64,000 bases of DNA from Escherichia coli. GTDB taxonomy: Bacteria > Pseudomonadota > Gammaproteobacteria > Enterobacterales > Enterobacteriaceae. Location of the stretch: assembly GCF_029227855.1 (NCBI RefSeq), contig NZ_CP074356.1. One strand, written 5' to 3'. This document shows, in pieces, positions 2,351 to 40,936 of this stretch. Every line of letters begins with the position of its first letter. The stretch's first letter is position 1. Made by a program: the position numbers and the translations under genes. The notes beneath the pieces are model-generated. The model made no database searches. It was not told where the DNA came from and was given only the letters and a program-made list of their open reading frames with translations.

Positions 2351-2520
2351 GGGGTATAACCTGAAAATGAGTCCAATAGGGGGAAATCTCCACGGCGCTC
2401 ACTTTACCAGTTGGTGAGAATTATCCGAAGCTGAAGTTTGTAAATTCCTTCCACTGAATGCAACATTCACTCTATTTAAGAGAAATATCCACCAAATCCA
2501 TAAATTAAATAAATGATAAA

Positions 2521-2550
2521 CCCATAATTATTTCCTGTAATTATGGGTTT
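2521..2550 (-). terminator. Candidate Rho-independent terminator downstream of entF
   Basis: Perfect 10-bp inverted repeat cccataatta/taattatggg with 7-nt loop; on the minus strand it is followed by a T-rich run, about 20 bp past the entF stop. Confidence 0.45.
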
Positions 2551-2565
2551 ATCGATAATATTAAT

Positions 2566-6447: not shown

Positions 6448-6662
6448 TGTGCCTCCTGCAACTGGGTGAAATTCGCCGGTGTCAGAGTACGCCAGTGGGC
6501 TTCAAGCCACTGCTGGCAGGACGCCTGTGACTGCGGCTGACACACAACGACCCAGCCTGCCGGTAAGGCGCATTGTTGCGGCCACAGACTGAATTGCCCC
6601 TGCGCATTGCGCAAAATGTTAAACGCTCCCTGCGGATCATCGAAGGGATTACTGAATGCCAT
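6444..6662 (-). CDS. ybdZ: MbtH-like protein YbdZ
   Basis: 72-aa product MAFSNPFDDPQGAF...SLWPQ...; ATG at 6660-6662 (the ORF track begins two codons upstream at a TTG); 4-bp overlap with the entF start. Confidence 0.88.
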   Translation of the reverse strand: MAFSNPFDDPQGAFNILRNAQGQFSLWPQQCALPAGWVVVCQPQSQASCQQWLEAHWRTLTPANFTQLQEAQ

Positions 6663-6664
6663 AT

Positions 6665-7867
6665 TCAACTCCTGTCATGGAAAAGTGGTTGCCAGAGGTC
6701 GATTAGCCCCTGCATCAAGCCACCGCGCCAACAAAGCGCATCATGTCCGCCGTCAACCTGACGCCAGAAAATGGATTCTTTTATGGGGTGTAATTGCGCA
6801 TACAGCGCCTGATTGGCCCGCATGATCATCGGCTCGCGAATACCCGCTTCCAGCATAATGCGCAGACCTTCGGCGCTAACTTCACCAGCTTTAAGTTGCT
6901 CAAGTAAAACACCTTCTTGCTGCCCGCCCCGATGAGGCCACCAGTACGATCCTGACTGGCTTAATACACAGCCAAAGCGTTCAGGCCAGTGCAGTCCGGC
7001 ATACAGCGCGGAAAGTCCACCAAAACTCTGCCCGGCGACCACGGTGCGATCGGCGCGATCGCTAAAAGGGGCAATAGCTTTCACCAGGGGTAATAACTCT
7101 TGCTGTACTGCCAGCCAGAAATCCGCATTACACGGCAGTTCGTGGGCGCGGTGCGTGGTGTCAATAGCGTCGATCAACACATACACGGCGGGAGGAAGTT
7201 GCTGACGATGGGTCAACGAAGTCAGCACAGGCCAGACAGGCATACTCTGCGCCCAAAATTCGCCATCGAGCAAAACTGCCAGCGGGCGTTCTCCTGCTGT
7301 TGCATCGCCGGTGGTAAAAATCCATACACGGCGTGAATTTTTCAACCGCTCACTTTTCCAGATAATTTCTTTGGCAGGCGTTTCTGGCGCTTGCGGACAA
7401 TCCCATCCCGGTTGTAGGGGCGCTTGCGGCATTTCGAGTGCAGAAACAGCGTGCCCTCGCCCGCCTTTCCAGCTTTGTGGATTCAGCGGATCGGCTATCG
7501 CCTGGGGCAATAGTTTTCGCCAGCCTTCACGTAATTCGAGGCGATCGGGGGATGGTGCAGAAAAAATGTCATCGCGTTCGGTGGGAATAAAACAGTAGCT
7601 GCCGCGCCAGTTGGCATTAAGTTGTGTCGTCCACTGCCAGACGTTGGTACCTGCAATTCGCTGCATCGACTGGGGCTGGCTGTTCTGATGGTGATCGGTC
7701 ACACCAGTGATGTAGACCCATACGCGCTTTATCGTCGAGTATTCTTCAGAACCTTGGGGATCACGCCACCAGAAAGTGACCTCAAACATTTCGTCATTCA
7801 GACGCTGCCATTCCGGGCCATGTTTCGACTGCCACCAGCTCTCACTTCCTACTTTTAACGCCGTCAC
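6665..7867 (-). CDS. fes: Enterochelin esterase Fes
   Basis: 400-aa ORF MTALKVGSESWWQSKHGPEWQRL... with esterase GQSFGG motif; the first codon appears to be GTG. Confidence 0.93.
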   Translation of the reverse strand: MTALKVGSESWWQSKHGPEWQRLNDEMFEVTFWWRDPQGSEEYSTIKRVWVYITGVTDHHQNSQPQSMQRIAGTNVWQWTTQLNANWRGSYCFIPTERDDIFSAPSPDRLELREGWRKLLPQAIADPLNPQSWKGGRGHAVSALEMPQAPLQPGWDCPQAPETPAKEIIWKSERLKNSRRVWIFTTGDATAGERPLAVLLDGEFWAQSMPVWPVLTSLTHRQQLPPAVYVLIDAIDTTHRAHELPCNADFWLAVQQELLPLVKAIAPFSDRADRTVVAGQSFGGLSALYAGLHWPERFGCVLSQSGSYWWPHRGGQQEGVLLEQLKAGEVSAEGLRIMLEAGIREPMIMRANQALYAQLHPIKESIFWRQVDGGHDALCWRGGLMQGLIDLWQPLFHDRS

Positions 7868-7916
7868 ACCATAACCCCATGTTTACTGTGAAATTTTTCA
7901 TTGATTGCAGAAATAT

Positions 7917-7939
7917 ATTGATAATATTATTGATAACTA
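7917..7939. promoter_or_regulatory. Fur box-like site in the fes-fepA divergent promoter region
   Basis: attgataatattattgataacta contains GATAAT-type hexamer repeats resembling the Fur consensus; located between divergent iron-regulated genes. Confidence 0.55.
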
Positions 7940-8109
7940 TTTGCATTTGCAATAGCGTAATGGCGCGCCGTGGGAAGCGCGGACATTAATTAACCAACTG
8001 CACTGCGTGTCTTTCAGGATCAAAGGTTTTCGCGGTAGCGGGATGCGTCGTGTTGATGACGACCATGCCCGACAGTTGCAATTCGTGGCAAAAATGCAGG
8101 AATAAAACA

Positions 8110-27734: not shown

Positions 27735-29636
27735 ATGTCAACCGGATTACGTTTCACACTGGAAGTGGACGGCCTGCCGCCGGATGCTTTTGCGGTGGTT
27801 TCCTTTCATCTGAACCAGTCACTCTCTTCGCTCTTTTCCCTCGATCTCTCCCTGGTCAGCCAGCAGTTTCTCTCCCTTGAATTTGCGCAGGTGCTGGACA
27901 AAATGGCCTACCTGACGATATGGCAGGGCGATGAAGTACAGCGCCGGGTGAAAGGCGTGGTGACCTGGTTTGAACTCGGGGAGAACGACAAAAACCAGAT
28001 GCTGTACAGCATGAAGGTGCACCCGCCGCTGTGGCGTGCCGGTCTGCGCCAGAACTTCCGTATCTTCCAGAACGAGGACATCAAAAGCATCCTCGGCACG
28101 ATGTTGCAGGAAAACGGGGTGACCGAATGGAGTCCGCTGTTCAGCGAGCCGCATCCTTCCCGTGAGTTTTGTGTCCAGTACGGTGAGACTGATTACGATT
28201 TCCTGTGCCGGATGGCGGCGGAGGAAGGCATCTTCTTTTATGAGGAGCATGCTTACAAAAGTACCGACCAGAGCCTGGTGCTGTGCGACACAGTCCGCCA
28301 TCTGCCCGAATCTTTTGAAATCCCATGGAACCCGAACACCCGTACCGAGGTGAGCACCCTCTGCATCAGCCAGTTCCGCTACAGCGCACAAATCCGCCCT
28401 TCTTCCGTGGTGACCAAAGACTACACCTTTAAACGCCCCGGCTGGGCCGGACGTTTTGAACAGGAAGGCCAGCACCAGGACTACCAGCGCACGCAGTATG
28501 AAGTGTATGACTACCCCGGACGTTTCAAGGGTGCCCACGGGCAGAACTTTGCCCGCTGGCAGATGGACGGCTGGCGAAACAATGCAGAAACCGCGCGGGG
28601 AATGAGTCGCTCGCCGGAGATATGGCCGGGACGACGAATTGTGCTGACGGGGCATCCGCAGGCGAACCTGAACCGGGAATGGCAGGTGGTGGCAAGTGAA
28701 CTGCACGGCGAACAGCCACAGGCGGTGCCAGGACGGCAGGGAGCGGGGACGGCGCTGGAGAACCATTTTGCGGTGATCCCGGCAGACAGAACATGGCGAC
28801 CACAGCCGTTGCTGAAACCGCTGGTCGACGGCCCGCAGAGCGCTGTCGTGACAGGACCGGCAGGCGAGGAAATCTTCTGCGACGAACATGGTCGCGTGCG
28901 GGTGAAGTTCAACTGGGACCGCTATAACCCGTCAAACCAGGACAGTTCGTGCTGGATCCGTGTGGCACAGGCGTGGGCAGGCACCGGTTTTGGCCACCTG
29001 GCGATACCGCGTGTGGGTCAGGAGGTGATTGTAGACTTCCTCAACGGCGATCCGGACCAGCCGATCATTATGGGGCGCACCTACCACCAGGAAAACCGCA
29101 CCCCCGGCAGCCTGCCGGGAACAAAGACGCAGATGACCATCCGCTCCAAAACGTACATGGGCAGCGGATTTAATGAGCTGAAGTTTGATGATGCGACAGG
29201 GAGAGAACAGGTCTACATCCACGCGCAGAAGAACATGGATACCGAAGTGCTCAACGACCGTACCACCACCGTAAAACACGATCACCACGAAACCGTAAAA
29301 AATGACCAGACGGTCACGATCCAGGAAGGTAACCGCCTTCTTACGGTGGAAAAAGGCCACAAGATCACCGGAGTACTGAAAGGGTCTTTATCTGAGGATG
29401 TCTTTCAGGACAGAGGCACGATTGCCGGTTCGGTGCATGTTGACGCTGTAAACAATGGTGGCGAAGGCGACGGTATACAGGCTTATACGGCGATTAAGGA
29501 AATTTTGCTGGCCGTGGAGGAAAGCAAAATTGCGCTGACGCCGGATGGCATTCAGCTACAGGTCGGGGAATCGACGGTAATCAGGCTGTCGAAGGATGGC
29601 ATCACCATCGTGGGCGGTTCTGTTTTCATCAACTGA
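27735..29636 (+). CDS. vgrG: Type VI secretion spike protein VgrG (Rhs-element Vgr protein)
   Basis: 633-aa ORF MSTGLRFTLEVDGLPPDAFAVVSFHLNQSLSSLFSLDLSL...; gp27/gp5-like organisation, immediately upstream of Eag/PAAR-Rhs genes. Confidence 0.88.
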   Translation: MSTGLRFTLEVDGLPPDAFAVVSFHLNQSLSSLFSLDLSLVSQQFLSLEFAQVLDKMAYLTIWQGDEVQRRVKGVVTWFELGENDKNQMLYSMKVHPPLWRAGLRQNFRIFQNEDIKSILGTMLQENGVTEWSPLFSEPHPSREFCVQYGETDYDFLCRMAAEEGIFFYEEHAYKSTDQSLVLCDTVRHLPESFEIPWNPNTRTEVSTLCISQFRYSAQIRPSSVVTKDYTFKRPGWAGRFEQEGQHQDYQRTQYEVYDYPGRFKGAHGQNFARWQMDGWRNNAETARGMSRSPEIWPGRRIVLTGHPQANLNREWQVVASELHGEQPQAVPGRQGAGTALENHFAVIPADRTWRPQPLLKPLVDGPQSAVVTGPAGEEIFCDEHGRVRVKFNWDRYNPSNQDSSCWIRVAQAWAGTGFGHLAIPRVGQEVIVDFLNGDPDQPIIMGRTYHQENRTPGSLPGTKTQMTIRSKTYMGSGFNELKFDDATGREQVYIHAQKNMDTEVLNDRTTTVKHDHHETVKNDQTVTIQEGNRLLTVEKGHKITGVLKGSLSEDVFQDRGTIAGSVHVDAVNNGGEGDGIQAYTAIKEILLAVEESKIALTPDGIQLQVGESTVIRLSKDGITIVGGSVFIN

Positions 29637-29663
29637 TTCACTCAGATTATCAGGGAGTATTTT

Positions 29664-30125
29664 ATGCAGTTCACTTTTAATGAAGGCCACATTCAACTGC
29701 CGTCTCAATGGCAGGATCAGTCAATGCAGGTCCTGGTGTCCACAGATAACAGTGGCATCAACCTGGTCATTACCCGCGAAGCCGTTCCACAGGGAACCCT
29801 GACACCAGAGCTGTACCAGGAAACGCTGGCGCTGTACCAGGGCAAACTTGATGGGTACACCGAACATGCCTGCCGGGAAATCACTCTGGCAGAGGCCCCG
29901 GCCTGGCTGCTGGATTATTCCTGGAACGGTCCGGAAGATGAGGGGAATCAGGGGCGGATTAGCCAGATAGCCGTATTCCAGCGGCGTGGAGATACGCTGC
30001 TGACCTTCACTTTCAGCACCTCCTTATCCCTGAAGAACAGTCAAAAGACGATGCTGCTGGAGGTGATAAAGAGCTTCACCCCGTTGCCACCGGAGAATGA
30101 CATCCAAAAGGACCAGCCGCGCTGA
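29664..30125 (+). CDS. DUF1795/Eag-family T6SS effector chaperone (EagR-like)
   Basis: 153-aa ORF placed between vgrG and a prePAAR-Rhs gene, the canonical position of Eag chaperones; assignment from context and overall similarity, no HMM run. Confidence 0.7.
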   Translation: MQFTFNEGHIQLPSQWQDQSMQVLVSTDNSGINLVITREAVPQGTLTPELYQETLALYQGKLDGYTEHACREITLAEAPAWLLDYSWNGPEDEGNQGRISQIAVFQRRGDTLLTFTFSTSLSLKNSQKTMLLEVIKSFTPLPPENDIQKDQPR

Positions 30126-30144
30126 CATAAACGAGGGATAACAC

Positions 30145-33100
30145 ATGAGTGAAGGACCAGGCGGGCCACAGGGAGCGACCGCAGGCGGTACGCTGGCAAT
30201 GCGAATGCTGTCACAGCAGGCGATGGTCGCCAGCCAGATGAAACGGGCAGCCAACGACAAAGCCATTGCACAGATGCTGGCATCAAAAAAGTCCGGCCCC
30301 CCCGCCGCCAGGCTGGGCGATGAAATTCAGCACAAGAGTTTTTTGGGGGCGCTGGCAGGGGCCGTGCTGGGGGCGATAGTGACCATCGCAGAAGGTTGCC
30401 TGATTATGGCCGCCTGTGCCACCGGCCCTTATGCGCTGGTTCTGGTGCCTGCGCTGATGTATGCCAGCTATAAGGCGAGTGATTATGTGGAGGAGAAACA
30501 GAACCAGCTTGAATCATGGATAAACAGCTTTTGTGACACGGACGGCGCCATCAATACCGGTTCTGAAAATGTAAACATTAACGGAAAGCCCGCTGCCAGG
30601 GCCGCCGTCACCCTTCCCCCTCCTCCCCCACCTGGAGCAATACCTGAAATCCCACAGGGGGAACCCTCATGGGGTGATATTGCCACTGACCTGCTTGAAT
30701 CGGCAGCGGAAAAAGCAGTACCACTGGCGAAGGCCTGGGGGAACGCTGTTATCACCCTGACGGACAGCAATGCCGGTTTTATGGATCGCGTCAGCGCCGG
30801 CGCATCGCTTCTGTTTCCCGCCGGTCCGGTATTAATGGAGTTTGCCACCATGGTGGGCGGGCGTGGCGAAATCAAAAAAGATGTGGATTTCCCGGAAGCC
30901 GGTGAGGACACGGCGCTCTGCGACAAGGAGAACAAACCACCGAGGATAGCCCAGGGCAGCAGCAACGTCTTTATCAACAATCAGCCCGCCGCGCGCAAGG
31001 GCGACAAACTGGAGTGCAGCGCGGCAATCGTGGAAGGTTCGCCGGACGTCTTTATTGGCGGTGAACAGGTGACCTATCTGGATATCCAGCCAGAGTTCCC
31101 GCCGTGGCAGAGAATGATCCTGGGGGGAATAACGATAGCCAGCTATCTTCTGCCGCCAGCGGGACTGCTGGGAAAACTGAAGAATCTGGCGAGACTCGGC
31201 AAACTGGGGAACCTGCTGGGGAAAAGCGGGAAGCTGCTGGGGGCAAAGCTCGGCGCGTTGCTGGGAAAAACAGATAAGTCGTTAAAAAGTATTGCCAATA
31301 AAGTCATCAGATGGGTAACAGATCCTGTCGATCCGGTAACCGGCGCGTACTGCGACGAACGTACCGACTTTACGCTGGGCCAGACCCTCCCCCTCTCCTT
31401 CACCCGTTTCCACAGTTCTGTACTGCCGCTGCATGGCCTGACCGGCGTGGGCTGGAGCGACTCCTGGAGCGAATACGCCTGGGTGCGTGAACAGGGAAAC
31501 CGGGTGGATATCATCAGCCAGGGAGCCACGCTGAACTTCGCCTTCGACGGTGACAGTGATACGGCGGTTAACCCGTATCACGCCCAGTACATTCTGCGCC
31601 GCCGCGATGATTATCTGGAGCTGTTCGACAGGGATGCACTGAGCAGCCGCTTCTTTTATGACGCCTTTCCGGGAATGCGTCTGCGCCACCCGGTGACTGA
31701 CGATACCAGCGATGACCGCCTGGCACACAGCCCCAATGACCGGATGTACATGCTGGGCGGGATGAGCGACACCGCCAGCAACCGCATCACGTTTGAGCGC
31801 GACAGCCAGTACCGGATCACAGGTGTCAGTCACACCGACGGGATCCGGCTTAAACTGACGTACCACGCCAGCGGCTACCTGAAAGCCATTCACCGCACGG
31901 ATAACGGCATACAGACGCTGGCGACCTACGAACAGGATGCGCGGGGGCGGCTGACAGAAGCGGATGCGCGGCTGGACTACCACCTGTTTTATGAGTACGA
32001 CGCTGCGGACCGGATCATCCGCTGGTCCGATAACGACCAGACGTGGAGCCGTTTCACCTACGATGAACAGGGCCGGTGCGTGAATGTCACCGGGGCGGAG
32101 GGCTATTACAACGCCACGCTGGACTATGGTGACGGCTGCACCACCGTGACGGACGGCAAGGGCATTCACCGTTATTACTATGATCCTGACGGCAATATTC
32201 TGCGGGAAGCAGCGCCGGACGGCAGCACCACCACGTATGAATGGGATGAATTCCATCACCTGCTGGCCCGTCACTCCCCTGCCGGGCGGGTGGAGAAATT
32301 TGAATACAACGCCGCACACGGTCAGTTAAGCCGTTACACGGCGGCAGACGGCGCGGAGTGGCAGTACCGCTATGATGAGCGCGGCCTGCTCAGCAACATC
32401 ACCGACCCTGCCGGGCAGACGTGGACACAGCAGTGTGATGAACGCGGCCTGCCGGTAAGTCTGGTGTCGCCACAGGGCGAAGAGACCCGGCTGGCATACA
32501 CCGCTCAGGGGCTGCTGTCGGGAATATTCCGCCAGGATGAACGGCGTCTGGGCATAGAGTACGACCACCACAACCGGCCGGAAACACTCACCGACGTGAT
32601 GGGCCGTGAACACCACACCGAATACAGCGGTCACGACCTGCCGGTGAAGATGCGCGGCCCCGGCGGTCAGTCAGTGCGGTTGCAGTGGCAGCAGCACCAT
32701 AAACTGAGTGGCCTTGAGCGCACTGGCACCGGCGCGGAAGGGTTCAGCTATGACCGCCACGGCAACCTGCTGGCCTGGACGGACGGCAATGGTGTTGTCT
32801 GGACAATGGAGTACGGCCCGTTCGATTTGCCGGTGGCGCGAACGGACGGTGAAGGCCACCGCTGGCAGTACCGCTATGATAAAGACACGCTGCAACTGAC
32901 AGAAGTCATTAACCCGCAGGGTGAGTCATATCTTTATGTTCTGGATAACTGCGGCCGGGTGACGGAAGAGCATGACTGGGGCGGCGTGGTCTGGCGTTAC
33001 CGCTATGACGCCGATGGCCTGTGTACCGCCAGGGTCAACGGCCTGGAGGAAACCATCCTCTACAGCCGGGACGACGCAGGCCGCCTGGCAGAAGTCATCA

Positions 33101-34974
33101 CGCCGGAAGGCAAAACGCAGTATGCGTATGACAAATCCGGCAGGCTGACGGGTATCTTCAGCCCGGACGGCACATCACAGCGCACCGGCTATGACGAACG
33201 CGGGCGGGTGAATGTCACCACTCAGGGCCGACGGGCCATTGAATACCACTACCCCGATGAACACACCGTCATCCGCTGTATCCTGCCACCGGAAGATGAA
33301 CGCGACAGACACCCCGGTGAATCCCTGCTGAAAACCACGTACCGCTACAACGCAGCCGGAGAACTGGCAGAGGTCATCCTGCCGGAGGATGAGACGCTGA
33401 CGTTCAGCCGTGATGAGGCAGGACGTGAAGTGCTCCGGCACAGTAACCGGGGTTTTGCCTGTGAGCAGGGCTGGAATGCAGCCGGTCAGCTTACCAGCCA
33501 GCGCGCCGGACTTTTCCCGGCAGAAGCCACATGGGGCGGGCTGCTCCCCTCACTGGTACGGGAGTACCGTTACGACAGCGCGGGCAATGTGTCGGCTGTC
33601 ACCAGCCGGGAAGATTACGGACGGGAAACTCGCCGGGAGTACCGGCTGGACCGGAACGGCCAGGTCACGGCGGTGACAGCCTCAGGCACCGGGCTGGGCT
33701 ATGGCGAAGGCGATGAGTCCTATGGCTATGACAGTTGTGGCTACCTGAAGGCGCAGTCTGCGGGCAGGCACCGGATAAGTGAAGAGACTGAGCGGTATGC
33801 CGGAGGCCACCGGCTGAAACAGGCCGGAAACACGCAGTATGACTATGACGCCGCAGGCCGGATGGTCAGCCGCACCAGACACCGTAACGGCTATCGCCCG
33901 GAAACAGAGCGGTTCCGGTGGGACAGCCGGGACCAGCTGACCGGGTATTGCAGCGCACAGGGTGAACAGTGGGAATACCGCCACGACGCCAGCGGCAGAC
34001 GGACGGAAAAACGCTGCGACCGGAAGAAAATCCGCTTCACGTACCTGTGGGACGGCGACAGTATTGCGGAAATCCGGGAATACCGCGATGATAAACTGTA
34101 CAGCGTAAGGCACCTGGTGTTTAACGGCTTTGAGCTGATAAGCCAGCAGTTTAGCCGGGTACGGCAGCCGCACCCGTCCGTGGCCCCGCAGTGGGTGACG
34201 CGGACGAATCATGCGGTGAGCGATCTGACGGGCCGTCCGCTGATGCTCTTTAACAGTGAAGGTAAAACCGTCTGGCGACCGGGACAGACCAGCCTGTGGG
34301 GGCTGGCACTCAGCCTGCCCGCGGACACCGGCTACCCGGACCCGCGCGGGGAACTGGACGCGGAAGCCGACCCCGGCCTGCTGTATGCAGGACAGTGGCA
34401 GGATGCGGAATCCGGGCTGTGCTATAACCGGTTCCGGTATTACGAGCCGGAAACAGGGATGTACCTGGTGAGTGATCCGCTGGGGTTGCTGGGGGGTGAG
34501 CAGACTTACCGGTATGTGCCGAATCCGTGTGGGTATGTTGATCCTTTGGGATTAGCAACATGTCCCATAATCAGACAACGGGTGCTGGCTAACCTTGAAG
34601 CCAGTCGGGCAGCAAGGGCTGCATCTAATTTTGGTAAGAAAAATATCTATGATTTTATCAAGGCAACTCAATCTGCTATCCCTGGCACCTCTATCCCAAA
34701 ATCTTTTGAGATTATAACTGCTAATGGTACTTTCTGGGTACACCCAAATGCTACAAAACATATGGCTGAATATTTGACTCGGAACGGTCTCTCACATTCA
34801 ACTTCTGTAGAGAGCCAAATAATGTTAACAAGTTTTCACGAAGCTGTAAGTTTGGCTAGTGCTCAAGGTATAAAGTATGAAGAAATGATGAATGTTGGCG
34901 GCTGGGAACTAGTATTTAGTCAAGCTAAATCTGACTCGGCTTTATCAGTTATTAAACATGCTCTTTATAAATGA
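30145..34974 (+). CDS. prePAAR/PAAR-domain Rhs polymorphic toxin (T6SS effector) with variable C-terminal toxin domain
   Basis: 1609 aa; prePAAR motif AARLGDEIQH near the N-terminus with hydrophobic helices; PAAR-like segment (GDKLECSAAIVEGSPDVFIGGE); many YD/RHS repeats; PxxxxDPxGL core-end motif (NPCGYVDPLGL) followed by about 150 aa of divergent C-terminus. Confidence 0.9.
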   Translation: MSEGPGGPQGATAGGTLAMRMLSQQAMVASQMKRAANDKAIAQMLASKKSGPPAARLGDEIQHKSFLGALAGAVLGAIVTIAEGCLIMAACATGPYALVLVPALMYASYKASDYVEEKQNQLESWINSFCDTDGAINTGSENVNINGKPAARAAVTLPPPPPPGAIPEIPQGEPSWGDIATDLLESAAEKAVPLAKAWGNAVITLTDSNAGFMDRVSAGASLLFPAGPVLMEFATMVGGRGEIKKDVDFPEAGEDTALCDKENKPPRIAQGSSNVFINNQPAARKGDKLECSAAIVEGSPDVFIGGEQVTYLDIQPEFPPWQRMILGGITIASYLLPPAGLLGKLKNLARLGKLGNLLGKSGKLLGAKLGALLGKTDKSLKSIANKVIRWVTDPVDPVTGAYCDERTDFTLGQTLPLSFTRFHSSVLPLHGLTGVGWSDSWSEYAWVREQGNRVDIISQGATLNFAFDGDSDTAVNPYHAQYILRRRDDYLELFDRDALSSRFFYDAFPGMRLRHPVTDDTSDDRLAHSPNDRMYMLGGMSDTASNRITFERDSQYRITGVSHTDGIRLKLTYHASGYLKAIHRTDNGIQTLATYEQDARGRLTEADARLDYHLFYEYDAADRIIRWSDNDQTWSRFTYDEQGRCVNVTGAEGYYNATLDYGDGCTTVTDGKGIHRYYYDPDGNILREAAPDGSTTTYEWDEFHHLLARHSPAGRVEKFEYNAAHGQLSRYTAADGAEWQYRYDERGLLSNITDPAGQTWTQQCDERGLPVSLVSPQGEETRLAYTAQGLLSGIFRQDERRLGIEYDHHNRPETLTDVMGREHHTEYSGHDLPVKMRGPGGQSVRLQWQQHHKLSGLERTGTGAEGFSYDRHGNLLAWTDGNGVVWTMEYGPFDLPVARTDGEGHRWQYRYDKDTLQLTEVINPQGESYLYVLDNCGRVTEEHDWGGVVWRYRYDADGLCTARVNGLEETILYSRDDAGRLAEVITPEGKTQYAYDKSGRLTGIFSPDGTSQRTGYDERGRVNVTTQGRRAIEYHYPDEHTVIRCILPPEDERDRHPGESLLKTTYRYNAAGELAEVILPEDETLTFSRDEAGREVLRHSNRGFACEQGWNAAGQLTSQRAGLFPAEATWGGLLPSLVREYRYDSAGNVSAVTSREDYGRETRREYRLDRNGQVTAVTASGTGLGYGEGDESYGYDSCGYLKAQSAGRHRISEETERYAGGHRLKQAGNTQYDYDAAGRMVSRTRHRNGYRPETERFRWDSRDQLTGYCSAQGEQWEYRHDASGRRTEKRCDRKKIRFTYLWDGDSIAEIREYRDDKLYSVRHLVFNGFELISQQFSRVRQPHPSVAPQWVTRTNHAVSDLTGRPLMLFNSEGKTVWRPGQTSLWGLALSLPADTGYPDPRGELDAEADPGLLYAGQWQDAESGLCYNRFRYYEPETGMYLVSDPLGLLGGEQTYRYVPNPCGYVDPLGLATCPIIRQRVLANLEASRAARAASNFGKKNIYDFIKATQSAIPGTSIPKSFEIITANGTFWVHPNATKHMAEYLTRNGLSHSTSVESQIMLTSFHEAVSLASAQGIKYEEMMNVGGWELVFSQAKSDSALSVIKHALYK

Positions 34975-35504
34975 CGATTATGCTTACATTAGAAAATGAA
35001 ACAAACTACAAAGATGTTGTTGTTAATATAGATGAATTTGTACCTTTTGATATAACTTTTGGAAAGGGGAGCGAACAGTGTTTGTACTGGAGAGGCGGCA
35101 ATGGTAAAAGTTCTTTGGTTGAAGTTGGGTTAAATATGTACAGCGGAGAAGTAAGTAACATCACACTAGCAAATATCGATTCAGGTGAAATTAACATTAC
35201 AGATGAGATGTTAGCCAACAACCTTCCTGAAATACAAGGGTCTGTTATATTTCAGACAAGCGAGTGGCTTAATAAAGACATTTCCGAATACTCAAACAGA
35301 TTTATTGATGATTTTGATTGCAATATCAAGTTAATAATTGGTAGTAATTACATTAAATTATTATTTAAAAAAGCAACAAATCCCATTTGTTATATCATTA
35401 ATAGGAATATAAGATTTGGTTTTTCTTTGAGTAGGGAACTTTCGACATTGGAAATATTAGACCTCAATCAAGAAAAATTAGATATTCTAAAGTTATTTAA
35501 ATAG
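34971..35504 (+). CDS. Putative cognate immunity protein for the Rhs C-terminal toxin
   Basis: 177-aa ORF whose ATG overlaps the rhs stop (ATGA); markedly AT-rich; position typical of rhsI genes. Confidence 0.7.
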   Translation: MTIMLTLENETNYKDVVVNIDEFVPFDITFGKGSEQCLYWRGGNGKSSLVEVGLNMYSGEVSNITLANIDSGEINITDEMLANNLPEIQGSVIFQTSEWLNKDISEYSNRFIDDFDCNIKLIIGSNYIKLLFKKATNPICYIINRNIRFGFSLSRELSTLEILDLNQEKLDILKLFK

Positions 35505-35983
35505 TTTTAGTGTTTGAAACTTACCGAGAGATGATAGCTATGAATGAATACAAAAACATCCATCTTGGAGGAAACAATGGAATGTTAATCCATTAAAAAA
35601 CATACTTCAATATCTTTAGTGAAGAAAGAGTTGTATGAAAGAAATATATCTTATGTGAGCGACATGATGCATGCTAATTATATTATTGGCCGGAAATTTT
35701 ATGATGATAGCAAAAAGGAGGGGTTATTTCTGTAAGAATGGATATACCCGCAGGGTTTGAACCAGACATTTATTTGTTGAAGTCTAAGATCCAAATGGAA
35801 GCATTTATATCCCTCAGATATTATGCGTTGACGGGTTGATAAAGATACTTTTAGAGGGTTAATAAATGGAGAACGTATAATAAATCTCTTAAACAAACTA
35901 TAACCTGTACTAATGAAAAAAATGGGAATAGATAAGTTAATAGCCTATTCTAAAAATGGTAAAGTGGTTTTACTTCCAAAATA

Positions 35984-36427
35984 ATGGAGTTTAGTATGAA
36001 AATCGAAGCTAATTCCCTTACTCATCCCTATGACTACAACGCCTCACTGAACAATTATTTACATTATTTTGAGAATTTCTCTCGTAATGACTGGAATAAA
36101 GATTCATGTGGAGGATATTTTACTTTTAGAGATGATGACAGAGAGTGTGTTTTGTTTTTTGTGAATTATGGTGATAATTTTTCATTGCGCTATGATTGTA
36201 CACAAAGTTCTGATGGAATAGTGTCATGCTGGTATAGTAACCATGAAGATGATAAAATGAATATCATCGTCGATGCTGATACAGAACAATTTATCCCTTT
36301 AGGTTCTTGCTTACCTCCTGATATTACTTTATCAGTAATAAAAGATTTTTTCAAAAATCCTTTAGAGAAATCAAAAAAAGTAAAATGGATGAATGCAGAT
36401 GACATTGACTGGTCATCTGTGTATTAA
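35984..36427 (+). CDS. Hypothetical protein, possible orphan immunity gene
   Basis: 147-aa ORF in AT-rich DNA downstream of the toxin/immunity pair; no recognisable motif. Confidence 0.4.
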   Translation: MEFSMKIEANSLTHPYDYNASLNNYLHYFENFSRNDWNKDSCGGYFTFRDDDRECVLFFVNYGDNFSLRYDCTQSSDGIVSCWYSNHEDDKMNIIVDADTEQFIPLGSCLPPDITLSVIKDFFKNPLEKSKKVKWMNADDIDWSSVY

Positions 36428-37318
36428 AGTTGGATTGGATAATTATCTGTTTCAAAAATCATTAAATTTAGAACCTATCTGTTCAACAGAGCTGCCTTGA
36501 ACAGCAGGTTCTTTTATGATGTCCAGGAGCGAATATGCCTGTGATGTCTGGCACTCAGCATCTGACTGACCTGGACTACTGATCCTACTCACACAGGGAG
36601 CTAGACCTGGAAGCAACCTACTGTAAGCAGTGCAGTAGCAGCCCACCTCACATCAGTCCTTGCAAGGTGTGGGCCTTTGTGATCTTGCTCTGTATTGCTG
36701 AGATCCTCAGGAAGGACTCGAAATTTAATCAGGAAGGCCGTTGCTAAAAATCAAAAAATAAATTCAAGAGCAATTTCTAAAACTTTTGAATCTACTGTAT
36801 CGGATGAGGTTTTCACTCCTTTCCAAAAGGTGAGTTTTCAAGCATTCAAGTTTCTGTTATGACCAAAACTTCACCATTTAACACTAATCCGAGTATTATG
36901 TTACCATGAAGAAAAAAGATATTAGATTTGCAATATCCATTAACTCCAACTCAAGTAAGATAGAATTAATGGAAAAATTAAAAACATAATCCCAGGGCTT
37001 ATTGAAATAACTCCCAGTGCATTAAGAGAAGAAAAAACATGGTAGTTATTGAAGATAATGATCTTTATGACTCTATAAAAGCAGAGGGAGTTGATGGATG
37101 GATGTATTATAAATTCATATTATCCATATTCCCATTAAAGGGAGTAGACACAACATTAGAATATCAACGGAAATTATCTTTTCTTTTCTTAAAGAAATTA
37201 AAAGATGCGGGTCTGTTAGGTGAACTTATATGCGAGGATGATTTTCATGACTGATGACCTCTACATATATCCTCAGTTCGTGGCTGGTATTACATGATCT
37301 GACAGGGAAAGATCGTAG

Positions 37319-37613
37319 CGAAATCAAAAAAGACGTGGATTTCCCGGAAGCCGGTGAAGACACGGCGCTCTGCGACAAGGAGACTAAACCGCCGAGGATA
37401 GCCCAGGGCAGCAGCAACGTTTTTATCAACAATCAGCCTGCCGCACGCCAGGGAGACAAACTGGAGTGCAGTGCGGCGATCGTGGAAGGTTCGCCGGACG
37501 TCTTTATTGGGGGTGAGCAGGTCACCTATCTGGATATCCAGCCGGAGTTCCCGCCGTGGCAGAGAATGATCCTGGGGGGAATAACGATAGCCAGCTATCT
37601 TCTGCCGCCAGCG
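37319..37613 (+). pseudogene. Duplicated fragment of the Rhs PAAR-domain region
   Basis: 295 bp nearly identical to 30867-31161 of the full-length rhs gene; encodes EIKKDVDFPEAGEDTALCDK...ITIASYLLPPA inside ORF 37254..37631; lacks the N-terminus and core. Confidence 0.85.
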
Positions 37614-37750
37614 CAGGGAAAGATCACGTAACGCTGCTTTTTTGTACTAAATAATTCGCACTAAATGTTCAATAATTGAGATATTCCTTATTACCTAAAT
37701 ACAGTTCCACCAAGATTACCTAAACCCAAATGAGGTAAAAGATAGTGGGT

Positions 37751-38112
37751 ATGAATAAAAATGAAATCCATTTCCCTATAGGATATGGTTGGTTGAATGA
37801 AAAAAAATTATTGGCACCAGTGAATTTAGCCAATTAGAACCATGGTTTTATCTAGATGAGAACAGGTGTTTTTTTGCGAATAAAAAATGGCCAAATGTCA
37901 TAGGTGAACAATTATTCGCTTTTGCTAAACGTCAAGATAATGATGAATTGGCTTGTTTCAAAATTAATGAATCTGGAGTCTGTGAGGGTGTTTATTTAAT
38001 TAATGGGTGGACTCCTAACGGGTTTGATATTATACAATTTTACCCTGATTTTTGGGAATGGGTACATTTGGTTATACAAGATGTCTCGGAGTGGATTGAT
38101 AATAAAGGATAA
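37751..38112 (+). pseudogene. Frameshifted small gene (immunity-protein-like) with an A8 tract at the frame switch
   Basis: ATG at 37751 reads 27 codons to a stop; a shifted frame from about 37813 continues for 99 codons to TAA at 38110-38112; the shift coincides with gaaaaaaaatt at 37798-37808. Confidence 0.45.
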
Positions 38113-38141
38113 TTTGAAACAAAAGTAAAAAACCGCCTTCA

Positions 38142-38840
38142 TTGAAGGTAACGTGGAGTGGTGGGCGGAGCAGCCTGCCCGCAGACACAGACTACCCGGA
38201 CCCGCGCGGGGAGCGGGACGCGGAAGCCGACCCCGGCCTGCTGTATGCAGGACAGTGGCAGGATGCGGAATCCGGACTGTGCTATAACCGGTTCCGGTAT
38301 TACGAGCCGGAAACCGGGATGTACCTGGTGAGTGATCCCCTGGGGTTGCTGGGGGGTGAGCAGACTTACCGGTATGTGCCTAATCCTAGTGGGTATGTTG
38401 ATCCTCTGGGATTAGCAACGTGTCCTATACTCAGACAGTGGGCGCTGACTAACCTTGAAGCCAGTCGGGCAGCAAGGGCTGCATCTAATTTTGGTAAGCC
38501 TCTGGTCCAGCGAAATAAAACGATTGGCGATAAAGTAAGGGATATGATTGCCAAAGAGAGGGGAACCACTCTAATTGAACAAAATTATAGAGTGACAGGA
38601 GGATTAAAGCGTATTGACGTTGTTGATGGAGTAACGGGTATAGAATCTAAAGTCGATCGAACAGGGTTAACAACCCGAGTACGGCAAGAGGTAGCGCGGG
38701 ATATTAAGATTTTGAGAAGTGAGCAACTTGATCAAATTGAATGGGTGTTTACAAGAAGTTCAACTACAGGGAAGATTGGGCCAACTAAACCACTTGAAGA
38801 TCTTTTAAATAAACATGGTATACCGATTATTTATCGATAA
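38142..38840 (+). CDS. Orphan Rhs C-terminal fragment: core end (DPxGL) plus alternative C-terminal toxin domain, candidate PD-(D/E)xK nuclease
   Basis: 38171-38498 nearly identical to 34311-34638 of the full rhs; the C-terminal domain diverges after ...AASNFGK; contains RIDVVDG...GIESK; the ORF begins at TTG and has no PAAR or core of its own. Confidence 0.7.
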   Translation: MKVTWSGGRSSLPADTDYPDPRGERDAEADPGLLYAGQWQDAESGLCYNRFRYYEPETGMYLVSDPLGLLGGEQTYRYVPNPSGYVDPLGLATCPILRQWALTNLEASRAARAASNFGKPLVQRNKTIGDKVRDMIAKERGTTLIEQNYRVTGGLKRIDVVDGVTGIESKVDRTGLTTRVRQEVARDIKILRSEQLDQIEWVFTRSSTTGKIGPTKPLEDLLNKHGIPIIYR

Positions 38841-38851
38841 GGAGTGATAGT

Positions 38852-39409
38852 GTGAAACTCAAACCGATTGGTGACTTTTTAAACAAAAATGGGTTTATAA
38901 AAAATGGTAACAATGATTTTTATAAAGTTCATGATAAGTTTGTAAATTGTATAAATTTTCAAAAAAAGAGTACAGGTGATATTTTTTTTATAAACACAGG
39001 TGTTCATCCTGTGTTCGAAAATTTTTGCAATGAACCACCGAAAAAAGAAATAGATTGTTACATCCGTAACCGTGTGTGTGATGGACTAAGTATATCTTTG
39101 CTGCATTCTTTTGAAGGTAGTGAGTTTGTTATCAGTGAGATAAAAAACAAAGCGTTTTGTTTTTTTGAATACTTTGATTCATTGAATAAAATATTCGATG
39201 CTATTCGTGTTGTAGATATTGAAGAGAGAAATATTTGCGATGAGCTAAGTGGTGTAAGCAGCGTAAGATTAGCTTTGATGTGTATGAACTACCAGTATGA
39301 GAAAAAAAAATTTAGCCTTGTTTCTGATTTTGCGAACTATGGTCTTGCTATATCTAGAGGCCCGGTACCGAAAAAAGCATTTAAGGATATGATAAAAATA
39401 ACAGAGTGA
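38852..39409 (+). CDS. Putative immunity protein for the orphan Rhs C-terminal toxin
   Basis: 185-aa AT-rich ORF with GTG start 11 bp after the orphan toxin stop and GGAG upstream. Confidence 0.6.
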   Translation: MKLKPIGDFLNKNGFIKNGNNDFYKVHDKFVNCINFQKKSTGDIFFINTGVHPVFENFCNEPPKKEIDCYIRNRVCDGLSISLLHSFEGSEFVISEIKNKAFCFFEYFDSLNKIFDAIRVVDIEERNICDELSGVSSVRLALMCMNYQYEKKKFSLVSDFANYGLAISRGPVPKKAFKDMIKITE

Positions 39410-39434
39410 TACCTAATCCGGTGTAATACTTGCT

Positions 39435-39646
39435 GCCTGTGTACCGCGAAGATTAACGGCCGGGAGGAAACTATTCTCTACAACCGGGACGCCACAGGCC
39501 GCCTGGCAGAAGTCATCACGCCGGAAGGCAAAACGCAGTATGCGTATGACAAATCCGGCAGGCTGACGGGTATCTTCAGCCCGGACGACACATCACAGCG
39601 CACCGGCTATGAAGAACGCGGGCGGGTGAATGTCACCACTCAGGGC
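39435..39646 (+). pseudogene. Internal Rhs core fragment
   Basis: About 210 bp at roughly 90% identity to 33018-33228 of the full-length rhs; truncated at both ends, abutting the ISAs1 left end. Confidence 0.8.
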
Positions 39647-40936
39647 AGGGAAAGATCATCCAAAGTACACTTTTTGTACTAAATAATTCGCATTTTATGT
39701 TTAAAAATGGAGATATTCCTCATTACCTAAAGCTGTTTTTTATTGCTTATACATGATCAAATACTCCTTACATAATTAAGGAGAACAAAATGGAACTTAA
39801 AAAATTGATGGAACATATTTCTATTATCCCCGATTACAGACAAGCCTGGAAAGTGGAACATAAATTATCGGATATTCTGCTGTTGACTATTTGTGCCGTT
39901 ATTTCGGGTGCAGAAGGCTGGGAAGATATAGAGGATTTTGGGGAAACACATCTCGATTTTTTGAAGCAATATGGTGATTTTGATAATGGTATTCCTGTTC
40001 ACGATACCATCGCCAGAGTTATATCCTGTATCAGTCCTTCAAAATTTCACGAGTGTTTTATTAACTGGATGCGAGATTGCCATACTTCAGATGATAAAGA
40101 CGTCATCGCAATTGATGGAAAAACACTCCGGCATTCTTATGACAAGAGTCGCCGCAAGGGAGCGATTCATGTCATTAGTGCGTTCTCAACAATGCACAGT
40201 CTGGTCATCGGACAGATCAGGACGGATGAGAAATCCAATGAAATTACAGCTATCCCTGAACTTCTTAACATGCTGGATATTAAAGGAAAAATCATCACAA
40301 CTGATGCGATGGGTTGCCAGAAAGATATTGCAGAGAAGATACAAAAACAGGGCGGTGATTATTTATTCGCTGTAAAAGGAAACCAGGGGCGGCTAAATAA
40401 AGCCTTCGAGGAAAAATTTCCGCTGAAAGAATTAAATAATCCAGAGCATGACAGTTACGCCATTAGTGAAAAGAGTCACGGCAGAGAAGAAATCCGTCTT
40501 CATATTGTTTGCGATGTCCCTGATGAACTTATTGATTTCACGTTTGAATGGAAAGGACTGAAGAAATTATGCGTGGCAGTCTCTTTTCGGTCAATAATAG
40601 CAGAACAAAAGAAAGAGCCAGAAATGACGGTCAGATATTATATCAGTTCTGCTGATTTAACCGCAGAGAAGTTCGCCACAGCAATCCGAAACCACTGGCG
40701 CGTGGAGAATAAGCTGCACTGGCGTCTGGACGTGGTAATGAATGAAGACGACTGCAAAATAAGAAGAGGAAACGCCGCAGAATTATTTTCAGGGATACGG
40801 CACATCGCTATTAATATTTTAACGAATGATAAGGTATTCAAGGCAGGGTTAAGACGTAAGATGCGAAAAGCAGCCATGGACAGAAACTATCTCGCGTCAG
40901 TCCTTGCGGGGAGCGGGCTTTCGTAATCTTGCCCTG
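39646..40936 (+). mobile_element. ISAs1-family insertion sequence (H-repeat element), about 1.29 kb
   Basis: Imperfect terminal inverted repeats CAGGGAAAGATCA (39646-39658) and TAATCTTGCCCTG (40924-40936); single transposase ORF; inserted in rhs-derived sequence. Confidence 0.75.
39790..40926 (+). CDS. ISAs1-family transposase (H-repeat-associated protein, YhhI/YdcC-like)
   Basis: 378-aa [55 protein letters not shown]...; the stop codon lies inside the right inverted repeat. Confidence 0.88.

What the first reader, a model, noticed from the sequence alone, without database searches (positions are those of the whole stretch)
35505..37253. Decayed AT-rich graveyard downstream of the immunity gene with one intact 147-aa ORF
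About 1.7 kb of AT-rich sequence with many short interrupted reading frames, for example a 27-codon frame at 36907 and the 71-aa ORF 37039..37254, plus a single intact 147-aa ORF at 35984..36427. This resembles the orphan immunity gene arrays that accumulate 3' of rhs loci; the intact ORF could be a functional orphan immunity gene conferring protection against a toxin not encoded here.
Basis: inference. Interest (0 to 1): 0.45.

Follow-up and report, generated by a model that had tools for sequence, protein, structure and literature searches.

The report
Orphan deaminase-immunity gene behind rhs
This AT-rich stretch behind an E. coli rhs toxin gene is the debris of two older toxin/antidote pairs pushed aside when a new toxin tip was acquired; one antidote gene, against a DNA/RNA-deaminase toxin this strain no longer makes, is still intact. 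This is a well-known kind of evolutionary leftover.

Summary
The window is an E. coli vgrG-eagR(DUF1795)-PAAR-Rhs island between cusS and nfrB.

In other E. coli strains the same rhs gene ends in a MafB19-like deaminase domain. A 143-aa gene follows it 11 bp downstream. Here a 1334-bp block (34569-35902) has replaced the deaminase catalytic domain. The block carries a tRNase-like toxin tip, its immunity gene and a 398-bp tail.

What remains of the old module:
- the last 26 deaminase codons (35904-35984);
- the intact immunity ORF, true start probably 35996 (143 aa, not 147), with an Imm1-like fold.

Further downstream lie:
- a short ISAs1-like end remnant;
- the last ~71 codons of a nucleotidyltransferase-fold Rhs toxin (36692-36909);
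- that toxin's immunity gene (36906-37254), broken by two 1-bp deletions. The gene is intact in O121 strains.

The immunity ORF occurs in 165 of 5426 complete E. coli genomes; the deaminase domain occurs in only 32. Identity as a displaced, orphaned immunity gene is well supported. Expression and protection are inferred, not shown. This is an ordinary, already described phenomenon (Rhs C-terminal displacement), so interest is low.

The parts
34569..34974 (+). Toxin tip of the current full-length PAAR-Rhs (30145-34974). It is the first part of the 1334-bp incoming block that displaced the older deaminase tip.
   Evidence: Homology to the deaminase-type rhs of strains AR_0019 and OkiPb01715 stops at 34568. 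The tip is 57% identical over 138 aa to a CdiA-CT that RefSeq annotates as a tRNA nuclease.
34971..35504 (+). Cognate immunity gene of the current toxin (177 aa by ORF; RefSeq starts it at 34980).
   Evidence: 35% identical (tblastn E=5e-19 in a small database) to the ORF immediately after the related cdiA gene. RefSeq annotates it in this position.
35505..35902 (.). 398-bp AT-rich tail of the incoming block. It holds only broken frames and its origin is unidentified.
   Evidence: It always travels with the toxin/immunity block (135 genomes). It is 99.75% identical between the window and O121 RM8352, while the flanks are 96.7-98.7% identical. No homologue was found for a conceptual translation, apart from a noisy contig of the same locus. 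Two degenerate-codon scans of 100,044 species genomes found nothing, and there is no Rfam match.
35903..35984 (+). 3' remnant of the displaced MafB19-like deaminase Rhs toxin: the last 26 codons (35904-35981) plus stop TAA (35982-35984). The catalytic HAE and CPNC motifs are gone.
   Evidence: tblastn: 88% identity to residues 175-200 of the AR_0019 Rhs tip and 85% to the Salmonella toxin tail. DNA homology to the intact genes begins at 35903. The intact tip matches Pfam MafB19-deam at E=1.9e-13.
35996..36427 (+). Intact orphan immunity gene (143 aa, Imm1-like) for the displaced deaminase toxin. An alternative upstream ATG at 35984 gives the 147-aa ORF. The Shine-Dalgarno GGAG lies at 35986-35989.
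   Evidence: for the ORF. Synteny with MafB19-deam toxins. It shares a 90% cluster with HMPREF9348_01318, which a preprint names as the deaminase immunity protein. AF2 pLDDT is 93.3. AFDB hits annotated Imm1 have TM 0.85-0.94. The Pfam Imm1 match is sub-threshold.
36428..36531 (.). Non-coding tail of the deaminase/immunity module.
   Evidence: 92% identical to the sequence that follows a different deaminase-immunity gene (P0020 family) in another E. coli rhs locus (L006/L007).
36532..36691 (.). GC-richer (52%) filler. Its last ~46 bp resemble the 3' end of ISAs1-family (H-repeat) transposase genes, so it is probably an IS remnant.
   Evidence: GC by segment. The stretch 36647-36692 is 78% identical to the end of the window's own ISAs1 transposase gene (40891-40936). 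The stretch 36645-36692 is 83% identical to an annotated ISAs1-family transposase on an Enterobacter plasmid. The protein-level match is not significant, so this assignment is tentative.
36692..36909 (+). 3' remnant (last ~71 codons, one frameshift between 36811 and 36838) of a nucleotidyltransferase-fold Rhs toxin. Stop TGA is at 36907-36909. The catalytic N-terminal half is missing.
   Evidence: tblastn to L012 7225-7989, residues 184-254: 60-72% identity, E=7e-23. That toxin matches Pfam NTP_transf_2 at E=3.3e-6 over residues 134-217.
36906..37254 (+). Second orphan immunity gene (116 codons when intact), a pseudogene here. It carries 1-bp deletions in A-runs at 36973-36977 and 37032-37037, which produce the 27-codon frame and the 71-aa ORF.
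   Evidence: Alignment with L009. The 116-aa version is intact in O121 RM8352 (WP_024026036.1). The 64%-identical homologue P0026 lies 11 bp after the NTase-fold Rhs toxin. It is broken in a different way (5-bp deletion) in OkiPb01715.
37314..37613 (+). Fragment of an rhs gene from the PAAR region (equal to 30862-31161 of the main rhs, 94% identical). It marks the downstream edge of the graveyard. In OkiPb01715 it continues into a long rhs core.

Best explanation
The region is layered debris left by Rhs C-terminal displacement, and the intact ORF is an orphaned immunity gene.

Shown by comparison:
- The ancestral arrangement, still present in about 31 complete E. coli genomes, is vgrG-eagR-rhs ending in a MafB19-like cytosine-deaminase-fold toxin domain, followed 11 bp later by a 143-aa immunity gene.
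- In the window's lineage a 1334-bp block recombined in. It carries a tRNase-like toxin tip, its immunity gene and a 398-bp tail. The upstream junction is in the conserved rhs core (about 34568) and the downstream junction is at about 35903.
- This deleted the deaminase catalytic domain but left its last 26 codons and the whole immunity gene.
- An older module of the same kind lies further downstream: a nucleotidyltransferase-fold toxin remnant plus its frameshifted immunity gene. It sits behind a probable ISAs1 end remnant.

Inferred mechanism: the 143-aa Imm1-like protein is still made. Translation would use its own GGAG ribosome-binding site. Transcription would come by read-through from the rhs operon, since no terminator-like site lies between the genes. 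The protein would bind and block the deaminase domain that other E. coli strains inject through the type VI secretion system. That would make this strain resistant to a toxin it no longer deploys. The second immunity gene is dead here.
For: Locus identity and annotation. Breakpoints against strains with the intact deaminase rhs. Deaminase identity of the displaced tip, with HAE and CPNC motifs visible: Pfam MafB19-deam E=1.9e-13, sequence. Toxin tail remnant. Independent synteny of homologues with MafB19-deam toxins in Salmonella and in a second E. coli locus. More distant family members sit in immunity-gene arrays behind Rhs or large toxin genes. Imm1-like fold (AF2 pLDDT 93.3; AFDB hits annotated Imm1 at TM 0.85-0.94). 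Conserved C-terminal aromatic residue and Trp match the published description of Imm1 as a deaminase-immunity family. The toxin domain is present in 32 of 5426 genomes and the immunity ORF in 165. The ORF is annotated as a non-pseudogene in 60 of 60 sampled genomes. The ribosome-binding site and the spacing to the toxin stop are preserved. No plus-strand terminator-like site lies in 34900-37700. The second module is documented. Orphan Rhs and T6SS immunity genes are documented elsewhere (PMC5361080, PMC3967940, PMC10539506). The orthologous pair in E. coli MS 145-7 is named a deaminase effector/immunity pair in bioRxiv 10.1101/2024.03.05.583533.
Against: There is no expression or protection data. 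The promoter scan found fewer sigma-70-like sites than in shuffled sequence (4 against 11.2), and only one weak site upstream of the ORF. The window allele differs from the cognate allele by 4 non-synonymous and 3 synonymous changes (F7S, H30R, L56V, Y68C). That count neither shows purifying selection nor guarantees that the allele still binds the toxin. Divergence in the ORF segment (1.3%) is not clearly lower than in neighbouring non-coding DNA (about 2.4%). Many of the 109 genomes with the window allele are probably clonal relatives, so intactness may simply reflect youth. In strain ISHS7 the ORF has decayed (ATG to ATT plus a 1-bp deletion). According to a review, the E. coli deaminase Rhs-CT itself was predicted but not tested experimentally; only Rhs-CT1, CT3 and CT5 were tested.
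Confidence: 0.8

Rival explanations
1. Neutral relic. The ORF is what was left behind by displacement, as above, but it is no longer expressed or no longer neutralises the toxin. It is intact only because too little time has passed for it to be disrupted.
For: Only 7 substitutions separate it from the cognate allele, 4 of them non-synonymous. Divergence is not clearly lower than in the flanks. No convincing promoter was found. The neighbouring immunity gene and the ISHS7 copy show that such genes do decay. Many carriers look clonal.
Against: The ORF is intact in two flank backgrounds that differ by 2-3% (the window lineage and O121), whereas the adjacent 116-codon gene has been broken independently in at least two different ways. 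The ribosome-binding site is preserved. It is annotated intact in 60 of 60 sampled genomes. Orphan immunity genes have been reported as protective in other systems (PMC10539506 abstract).
Confidence: 0.3
2. The ORF is not an immunity protein but some other accessory of the toxin, such as a chaperone, adaptor or regulator. Its position after the toxin gene would then be misleading.
For: The window protein itself does not reach significance against any curated family (Pfam Imm1 E=0.14; no NCBIfam or PADLOC hit). No solved structure resembles it.
Against: The T6SS chaperone role is already filled by the DUF1795/DcrB-related gene upstream of rhs (PMC6730261). The gene sits 10-11 bp after the toxin stop in three independent contexts, which is the canonical immunity position. 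Structural neighbours are annotated Imm1. Relatives occur in immunity arrays alongside SUKH, Imm51 and DUF4304 genes.
Confidence: 0.05
3. The AT-rich stretch is a non-coding functional element (a small RNA, regulatory region or mobile element) rather than gene debris.
For: The 398-bp tail (35505-35902) and the 160-bp GC-richer piece (36532-36691) have no identified coding homologue.
Against: No Rfam match at E<=1 on either strand. The sequence occurs only at this locus in E. coli, with one copy per genome and none on plasmids. About three quarters of the 1749 bp is accounted for by identified toxin and immunity remnants.
Confidence: 0.05

Closest known systems
Rhs C-terminal displacement with orphan toxin/immunity modules (the Jackson et al. 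2009 model is cited from my own knowledge; Poole et al. 2011, PMC3150448; Koskiniemi et al. 2014, PMC3967940)
   Same: A full-length rhs gene carries a new toxin tip and immunity gene. Older tips and immunity genes are stacked 3' of it. The junction lies in the conserved core just before the DPxGL-type boundary. H-repeat/ISAs1 elements are nearby.
   Different: The Salmonella LT2 orphan keeps enough rhs core to recombine back and be re-expressed. Here the deaminase remnant keeps only 26 codons with no core homology, so the toxin cannot be resurrected and only the immunity gene can matter.
Sequential effector displacement producing immunity-gene arrays in Vibrio cholerae T6SS clusters (Kirchberger et al. 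2017, PMC5361080)
   Same: Successive incoming effector/immunity pairs replace the effector but leave the older immunity genes as an array. Short 3' stubs of the old effector remain in front of the retained immunity gene.
   Different: That system involves a different organism and different effector classes (not Rhs). In the window one retained immunity gene is intact and the next is frameshifted.
E. coli vgrGO1-eagR-Rhs-CT islands (Ma et al. 2017, as summarised in PMC6730261 and bioRxiv 10.1101/2024.03.05.583533)
   Same: The island architecture is the same. The displaced module is the 'Rhs-MafB19 deaminase' effector/immunity pair of E. coli MS 145-7 (HMPREF9348_01319 and HMPREF9348_01318). 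The window ORF is in the same 90% protein cluster as HMPREF9348_01318.
   Different: In the window the effector half is deleted. According to the review, the deaminase pair was catalogued but not among the pairs tested experimentally.
Pfam Imm1 (PF14430), immunity proteins of deaminase polymorphic toxins (Zhang et al. 2012, PMC3482391)
   Same: Alpha+beta fold, conserved aromatic residue and Trp near the C-terminus, and a position as neighbour of a deaminase toxin. AFDB neighbours annotated Imm1 have TM 0.85-0.94.
   Different: The sequence match is below threshold for the window protein (E=0.14). The published partner of Imm1 is the SCP1.201 deaminase clade, and the MafB19 clade was tabulated with SUFU and SUKH immunity proteins. 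The MafB19 + Imm1-like pairing is therefore a minor extension.

Membership tests
Orphan immunity gene left by Rhs C-terminal displacement | Lies 3' of a full-length rhs gene that has its own, different toxin tip and immunity gene | tested here: met
   PAAR-Rhs at 30145-34974 with a tRNase-like tip, followed by the 177-aa immunity gene and then the ORF.
Orphan immunity gene left by Rhs C-terminal displacement | The same gene is the immediate downstream partner of a toxin tip in other strains or species | tested here: met
   It lies 11 bp after the deaminase Rhs at the same locus in AR_0019 and OkiPb01715. Homologues lie 10-11 bp after MafB19-deam ORFs in Salmonella and in a second E. coli locus.
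Orphan immunity gene left by Rhs C-terminal displacement | A stub of the displaced toxin remains upstream, and the replacement has a definable breakpoint | tested here: met
   The last 26 codons are at 35904-35981. The breakpoints are at 34568/34569 and 35902/35903.
Orphan immunity gene left by Rhs C-terminal displacement | The cognate toxin is absent from the genome | tested here: met
   There is no deaminase domain elsewhere in the 64-kb window. The catalytic-domain DNA is found in 32 genomes, and these do not include NZ_AP045174.1, which matches the region at 100%. Toxins too diverged for blastn would be missed.
Orphan immunity gene left by Rhs C-terminal displacement | The gene is expressed and protects against the cognate toxin | not testable with these tools
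   Only indirect evidence: intact ORF, GGAG ribosome-binding site, and no terminator-like site upstream.
Pfam Imm1 (PF14430) | Significant match to the family profile | tested here: inconclusive
   The window protein scores E=0.14. Among 82 relatives, 16 match at E<=0.1 and one at 3.8e-5.
Pfam Imm1 (PF14430) | Alpha+beta fold with a conserved aromatic residue and Trp near the C-terminus (Zhang et al. 2012) | tested here: met
   The AF2 model (pLDDT 93.3) has mixed strands and helices. F118 and W131 are nearly invariant in 82 sequences. AFDB50 neighbours annotated Imm1 have TM 0.85-0.94 and E down to 3e-11.
Pfam Imm1 (PF14430) | Gene neighbour of a deaminase-fold polymorphic toxin | tested here: met
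   The deaminase clade here is MafB19-like rather than the SCP1.201 clade listed for Imm1.
MafB19-like deaminase toxin (PF14437), applied to the remnant at 35903-35984 | HxE and CxxC zinc-binding motifs of the deaminase fold | tested here: not met
   The window keeps only the residues after the CPNC motif. The intact relatives have HAE and CPNC. The remnant is therefore a dead fragment of a family member, not a toxin.
Nucleotidyltransferase-fold Rhs toxin with 116-aa immunity protein (second module) | Catalytic NTase domain present and immunity ORF intact | tested here: not met
   Only residues 184-254 of the toxin remain, with a frameshift, while the Pfam domain spans 134-217. The immunity gene has two 1-bp deletions here and is intact in O121.

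The most novel reading that the evidence does not exclude
The Imm1-like 143-aa protein is a working inhibitor of an uncharacterised MafB19-clade nucleic-acid deaminase, and selection keeps it in strains that have lost the toxin. About five times more complete E. coli genomes carry the antidote (165) than the weapon (32). On this reading, resistance without armament is the commoner state for this toxin in E. coli. The pair would also be an untested deaminase/inhibitor couple of the kind exploited for base editing (DddA/DddI, SsdA).
Probability: 0.45. Interest if true: 0.3.

Novelty: already known. Interest (0 to 1): 0.15.

Why it matters
It matters little for discovery. The result is a clean, fully resolved example of how rhs loci record their history. 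The newest toxin/immunity block is nearly identical between lineages whose flanks differ by 2-3%. Behind it sit an intact orphan antidote and, further back, an older frameshifted one. The practical uses are three. (1) Annotation: two 'hypothetical proteins' and an 'RNA-binding protein' in RefSeq can be read as immunity genes, one of them a pseudogene fragment. (2) Prediction of which E. coli strains should resist deaminase-armed competitors. (3) It points to an untested MafB19-clade deaminase and its inhibitor.

Tried and rejected
1. Deaminase remnant upstream of 35903. I tested whether the whole 480 bp before the ORF is a decayed deaminase domain. Only the last 26 codons match, and DNA and protein homology stop at 35903. 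The apparent 'HAN' motif upstream has the wrong spacing. Rejected.

2. Origin of the 398-bp tail (35505-35902).
- A frameshift-corrected conceptual protein found only P0154. This proved to be the same E. coli locus on a 998-bp contig with homopolymer errors.
- Two degenerate-codon DNA patterns found nothing in 100,044 species genomes.
- Comparison with the region downstream of the related cdiA/cdiI pair gave nothing beyond the immunity gene.
- Left unexplained.

3. Structured RNA. Rfam gave no hit at E<=1 for 34500-39800.

4. The GC-richer piece (36532-36691). It is not dispersed in E. coli. Only its last ~46 bp resemble ISAs1 transposase gene ends, and the protein-level similarity is not significant. 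The assignment is tentative.

5. Curated families for the ORFs. NCBIfam and PADLOC gave nothing. PDB sequence and Foldseek searches gave nothing. The 116-aa protein has no Pfam family.

6. Selection test. There are too few substitutions (4 non-synonymous, 3 synonymous) for a meaningful dN/dS.

7. SsdA. From memory I had linked SsdA to the MafB19 family. The papers found describe SsdA as DYW-like/BaDTF2 and do not mention MafB19, so I do not use that link.
Full report
**Where we are.** The window around the finding is an E. coli chromosomal island between cusS and nfrB. The finding region is 100% identical to E. coli JNEC-KY178 (NZ_AP045174.1). The gene order is as follows:

| Coordinates | Feature |
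|---|---|
| 27735-29636 | vgrG |
| 29664-30125 | DcrB-related/DUF1795 (EagR-type) gene |
| 30145-34974 | 1609-aa PAAR-Rhs protein |
| 34971-35504 | 177-aa ORF |
| 35505-37253 | the finding |
| 37314-37613 | PAAR-region rhs fragment |
| 38142-38840 | orphan rhs C-terminus |
| 38852-39409 | DUF4304 gene |
| 39790-40926 | ISAs1 transposase |
| from 41124 | nfrB |

**The observation.**
- Region 35505-37253 has 33.9% GC, against 51.0% for the window.
- The ORFs at 35984..36427 (147 aa) and 37039..37254 (71 aa) exist as stated. All other frames are short.
- In 2000 shuffles of the region, no ATG-ORF reached 143 codons (mean 59, maximum 141). The intact ORF is therefore not a chance frame.
- Two corrections. 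The 27-codon frame starts at 36906, not 36907. The intact ORF most likely starts at 35996 (143 aa), because a GGAG lies at 35986-35989, RefSeq uses that start, and the Salmonella homologue begins there.

**What the intact ORF is.**
- *Sequence families.* Pfam gives only a weak Imm1 hit (E=0.14-0.15). NCBIfam and PADLOC give nothing.
- *Close homologues.* They form a small family in E. coli, Salmonella and Achromobacter.
- *Context.* The Salmonella homologue (70% identity) lies 11 bp after an ORF with a MafB19-deam domain. An E. coli homologue of 47% identity lies 9 bp after an Rhs C-terminus with the same domain.
- *Same locus, other strains.* In 30 complete E. coli genomes, the sequence from 35903 onward lies at the 3' end of an annotated rhs gene. 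In AR_0019 and OkiPb01715, the same vgrG-DcrB-rhs island next to nfrB has a 1613-aa Rhs followed 11 bp later by the 143-aa gene WP_000687356.1. The last 200 residues of that Rhs match Pfam MafB19-deam at E=1.9e-13 and show the HAE and CPNC motifs.
- *Wider family.* A profile search finds 128 cluster representatives, mostly 135-155 aa. Of 82 aligned members, 16 touch Imm1 at E<=0.1, the best at 3.8e-5. F118 and W131 are nearly invariant.
- *Structure.* The AlphaFold2 model is confident (pLDDT 93.3). It has no PDB neighbour. In AFDB50 it aligns with proteins annotated 'Immunity protein Imm1' at TM 0.85-0.94.
- *Literature.* Zhang et al. 2012 describe Imm1 as an alpha+beta immunity family with a C-terminal aromatic residue and Trp, partnered with deaminase toxins.
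- *Other contexts.* More distant members sit in immunity arrays behind Rhs or other large toxin genes.
- *Named orthologue.* The window protein is in the same 90% cluster as HMPREF9348_01318 of E. coli MS 145-7. A preprint, citing Ma et al. 2017, names that protein as the immunity protein of the Rhs-MafB19 deaminase effector.

**Anatomy of the 'graveyard'.** Alignment of the window with AR_0019 (L008), OkiPb01715 (L009), ISHS7 (L010) and O121 RM8352 (L011) gives the following layers.

1. *Shared core, 27905-34568.* This is collinear with the deaminase-type islands at 95-99% identity.

2. *Incoming block, 34569-35902 (1334 bp).* It replaces 337 bp of deaminase catalytic domain.
   - It encodes a toxin tip 57% identical to a CdiA-CT that RefSeq annotates as a tRNA nuclease.
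   - It encodes an immunity protein 35% identical to the ORF after that cdiA.
   - It ends in a 398-bp tail (35505-35902) for which I found no homologue.
   - It is 99.8% identical between the window and O121, although the flanks differ by 1.3-3.3%. It is therefore younger than its surroundings.

3. *Deaminase stub, 35903-35984.* The last 26 deaminase codons plus the stop.

4. *Immunity gene, 35996-36427.*

5. *Module tail, 36428-36531.* It is shared with a second deaminase module.

6. *Filler, 36532-36691.* GC is 52%. Its end resembles the 3' end of ISAs1-family transposase genes. This assignment is tentative.

7. *NTase toxin stub, 36692-36909.* The last ~71 codons, with one frameshift, of a nucleotidyltransferase-fold Rhs toxin (tblastn E=7e-23; Pfam NTP_transf_2 E=3.3e-6 in the intact relative).

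8. *Second immunity gene, 36906-37254.* Its start overlaps the toxin stop (ATGA).
   - It is 116 codons and intact in O121.
   - In OkiPb01715 a 5-bp deletion breaks it instead.
   - Its 64%-identical homologue lies 11 bp after the NTase-fold Rhs toxin in a metagenomic rhs array.

9. *rhs fragment, 37314-37613.* A fragment from the PAAR region.

**Distribution.**
- The immunity ORF is in 165 of 5426 complete E. coli genomes. It is always chromosomal and nearly always single-copy. It was annotated as a normal gene in all 60 genomes sampled.
- The deaminase catalytic-domain DNA is in only 32 genomes. NZ_AP045174.1 is not among them.
- About 135 genomes carry the displaced arrangement.
- The 64-kb window has no other deaminase domain.
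- In ISHS7 a further displacement has occurred, and the 143-aa gene has lost its start codon and acquired a frameshift.

**Mechanism, and what is inferred.** The comparisons show the history: C-terminal displacement by recombination in the conserved rhs core, with an illegitimate downstream junction. Function is inferred.
- The ribosome-binding site and the spacing to the toxin stop are preserved.
- No terminator-like site separates the gene from the rhs operon. The promoter scan is unremarkable.
- The expected activity is stoichiometric binding and blocking of the injected deaminase domain, as for other T6SS and Rhs immunity proteins.
- Evidence for selection is weak. There are 4 non-synonymous and 3 synonymous differences from the cognate allele, and the ORF segment is not clearly more conserved than its flanks.
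- The best comparative hint is that the ORF is intact in two diverged backgrounds, while its neighbour was broken independently at least twice.
- I put identity as a displaced deaminase-immunity gene at about 0.9, and current protective function at about 0.5-0.6.

**Comparison with what is known.** This is the textbook pattern of Rhs C-terminal displacement and orphan modules (PMC3150448, PMC3967940). It also matches the sequential effector displacement that leaves immunity arrays in other T6SS systems (PMC5361080). Orphan Rhs immunity proteins are reported as protective in Serratia (PMC10539506 abstract). The island type and the deaminase pair were catalogued in E. coli by Ma et al. 2017, as summarised. 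According to the review, the deaminase pair itself was not among those tested experimentally. The only small extension is that an Imm1-like protein partners a MafB19-clade deaminase, whereas the 2011-2012 tables list SUFU and SUKH for that clade and SCP1.201 for Imm1.

**Verdict.** Interest is low (0.15).

Noticed in passing
window 38142-39409: A complete orphan rhs C-terminus (232-aa ORF with the Rhs-associated core motif and an unidentified toxin tip) sits next to a DUF4304 gene in the immunity position. It keeps 328 bp of 94% identity to the main rhs (38171-38498 against 34311-34638). Unlike the deaminase stub, it could recombine back onto the main rhs and be re-armed, as described for the Salmonella orphan (PMC3967940).
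   Followed up: partly
window 37745-38115: Another decayed gene of about 120 codons, with one frameshift in an A-run near 37800. It lies between the PAAR fragment and the orphan rhs C-terminus and is probably a further dead immunity gene. The conceptual translation has no NCBIfam or PADLOC hit.
   Followed up: partly
window 35505-35902: The 398-bp tail of the incoming toxin/immunity block has no detectable homologue anywhere searched, yet it is 99.75% conserved among E. coli carriers. Its origin and any role are unexplained.
   Followed up: yes
window 34569-35902 compared with L011 (O121 RM8352): The incoming block has 3 mismatches in 1334 bp between two lineages, while the flanking rhs core has about 3% and the downstream debris about 2% divergence. 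This suggests recent horizontal spread of the block, with identical junctions, between E. coli lineages.
   Followed up: partly
window 34971-35504: RefSeq names this protein (WP_001370340.1) 'RNA-binding protein' in some genomes and 'hypothetical protein' in others. By position, and by 35% identity to the ORF after a tRNA-nuclease cdiA, it is the immunity protein of the current Rhs toxin.
   Followed up: partly
window 37314-37613 and 39435-39646: Two further rhs fragments lie downstream, both 94% identical direct repeats of the main gene (30862-31161 and 33017-33228). They could act as substrates for deletion or duplication.
   Followed up: no
L010 (E. coli ISHS7, NZ_CP092252.1) 100-8064: This strain shows a third layer. 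Yet another toxin tip and a 129-aa immunity gene sit on the main rhs. The tRNase-like tip and its immunity gene have become the orphan, and the deaminase-immunity gene has decayed. The three stages of the same process can be seen across strains.
   Followed up: partly
L005 (Achromobacter sp. UMC71) 7589-8023: The Achromobacter homologue (50% identity) of the deaminase-immunity protein stands alone between unrelated genes, with no toxin gene nearby. It may be an isolated orphan immunity gene outside any rhs locus.
   Followed up: no
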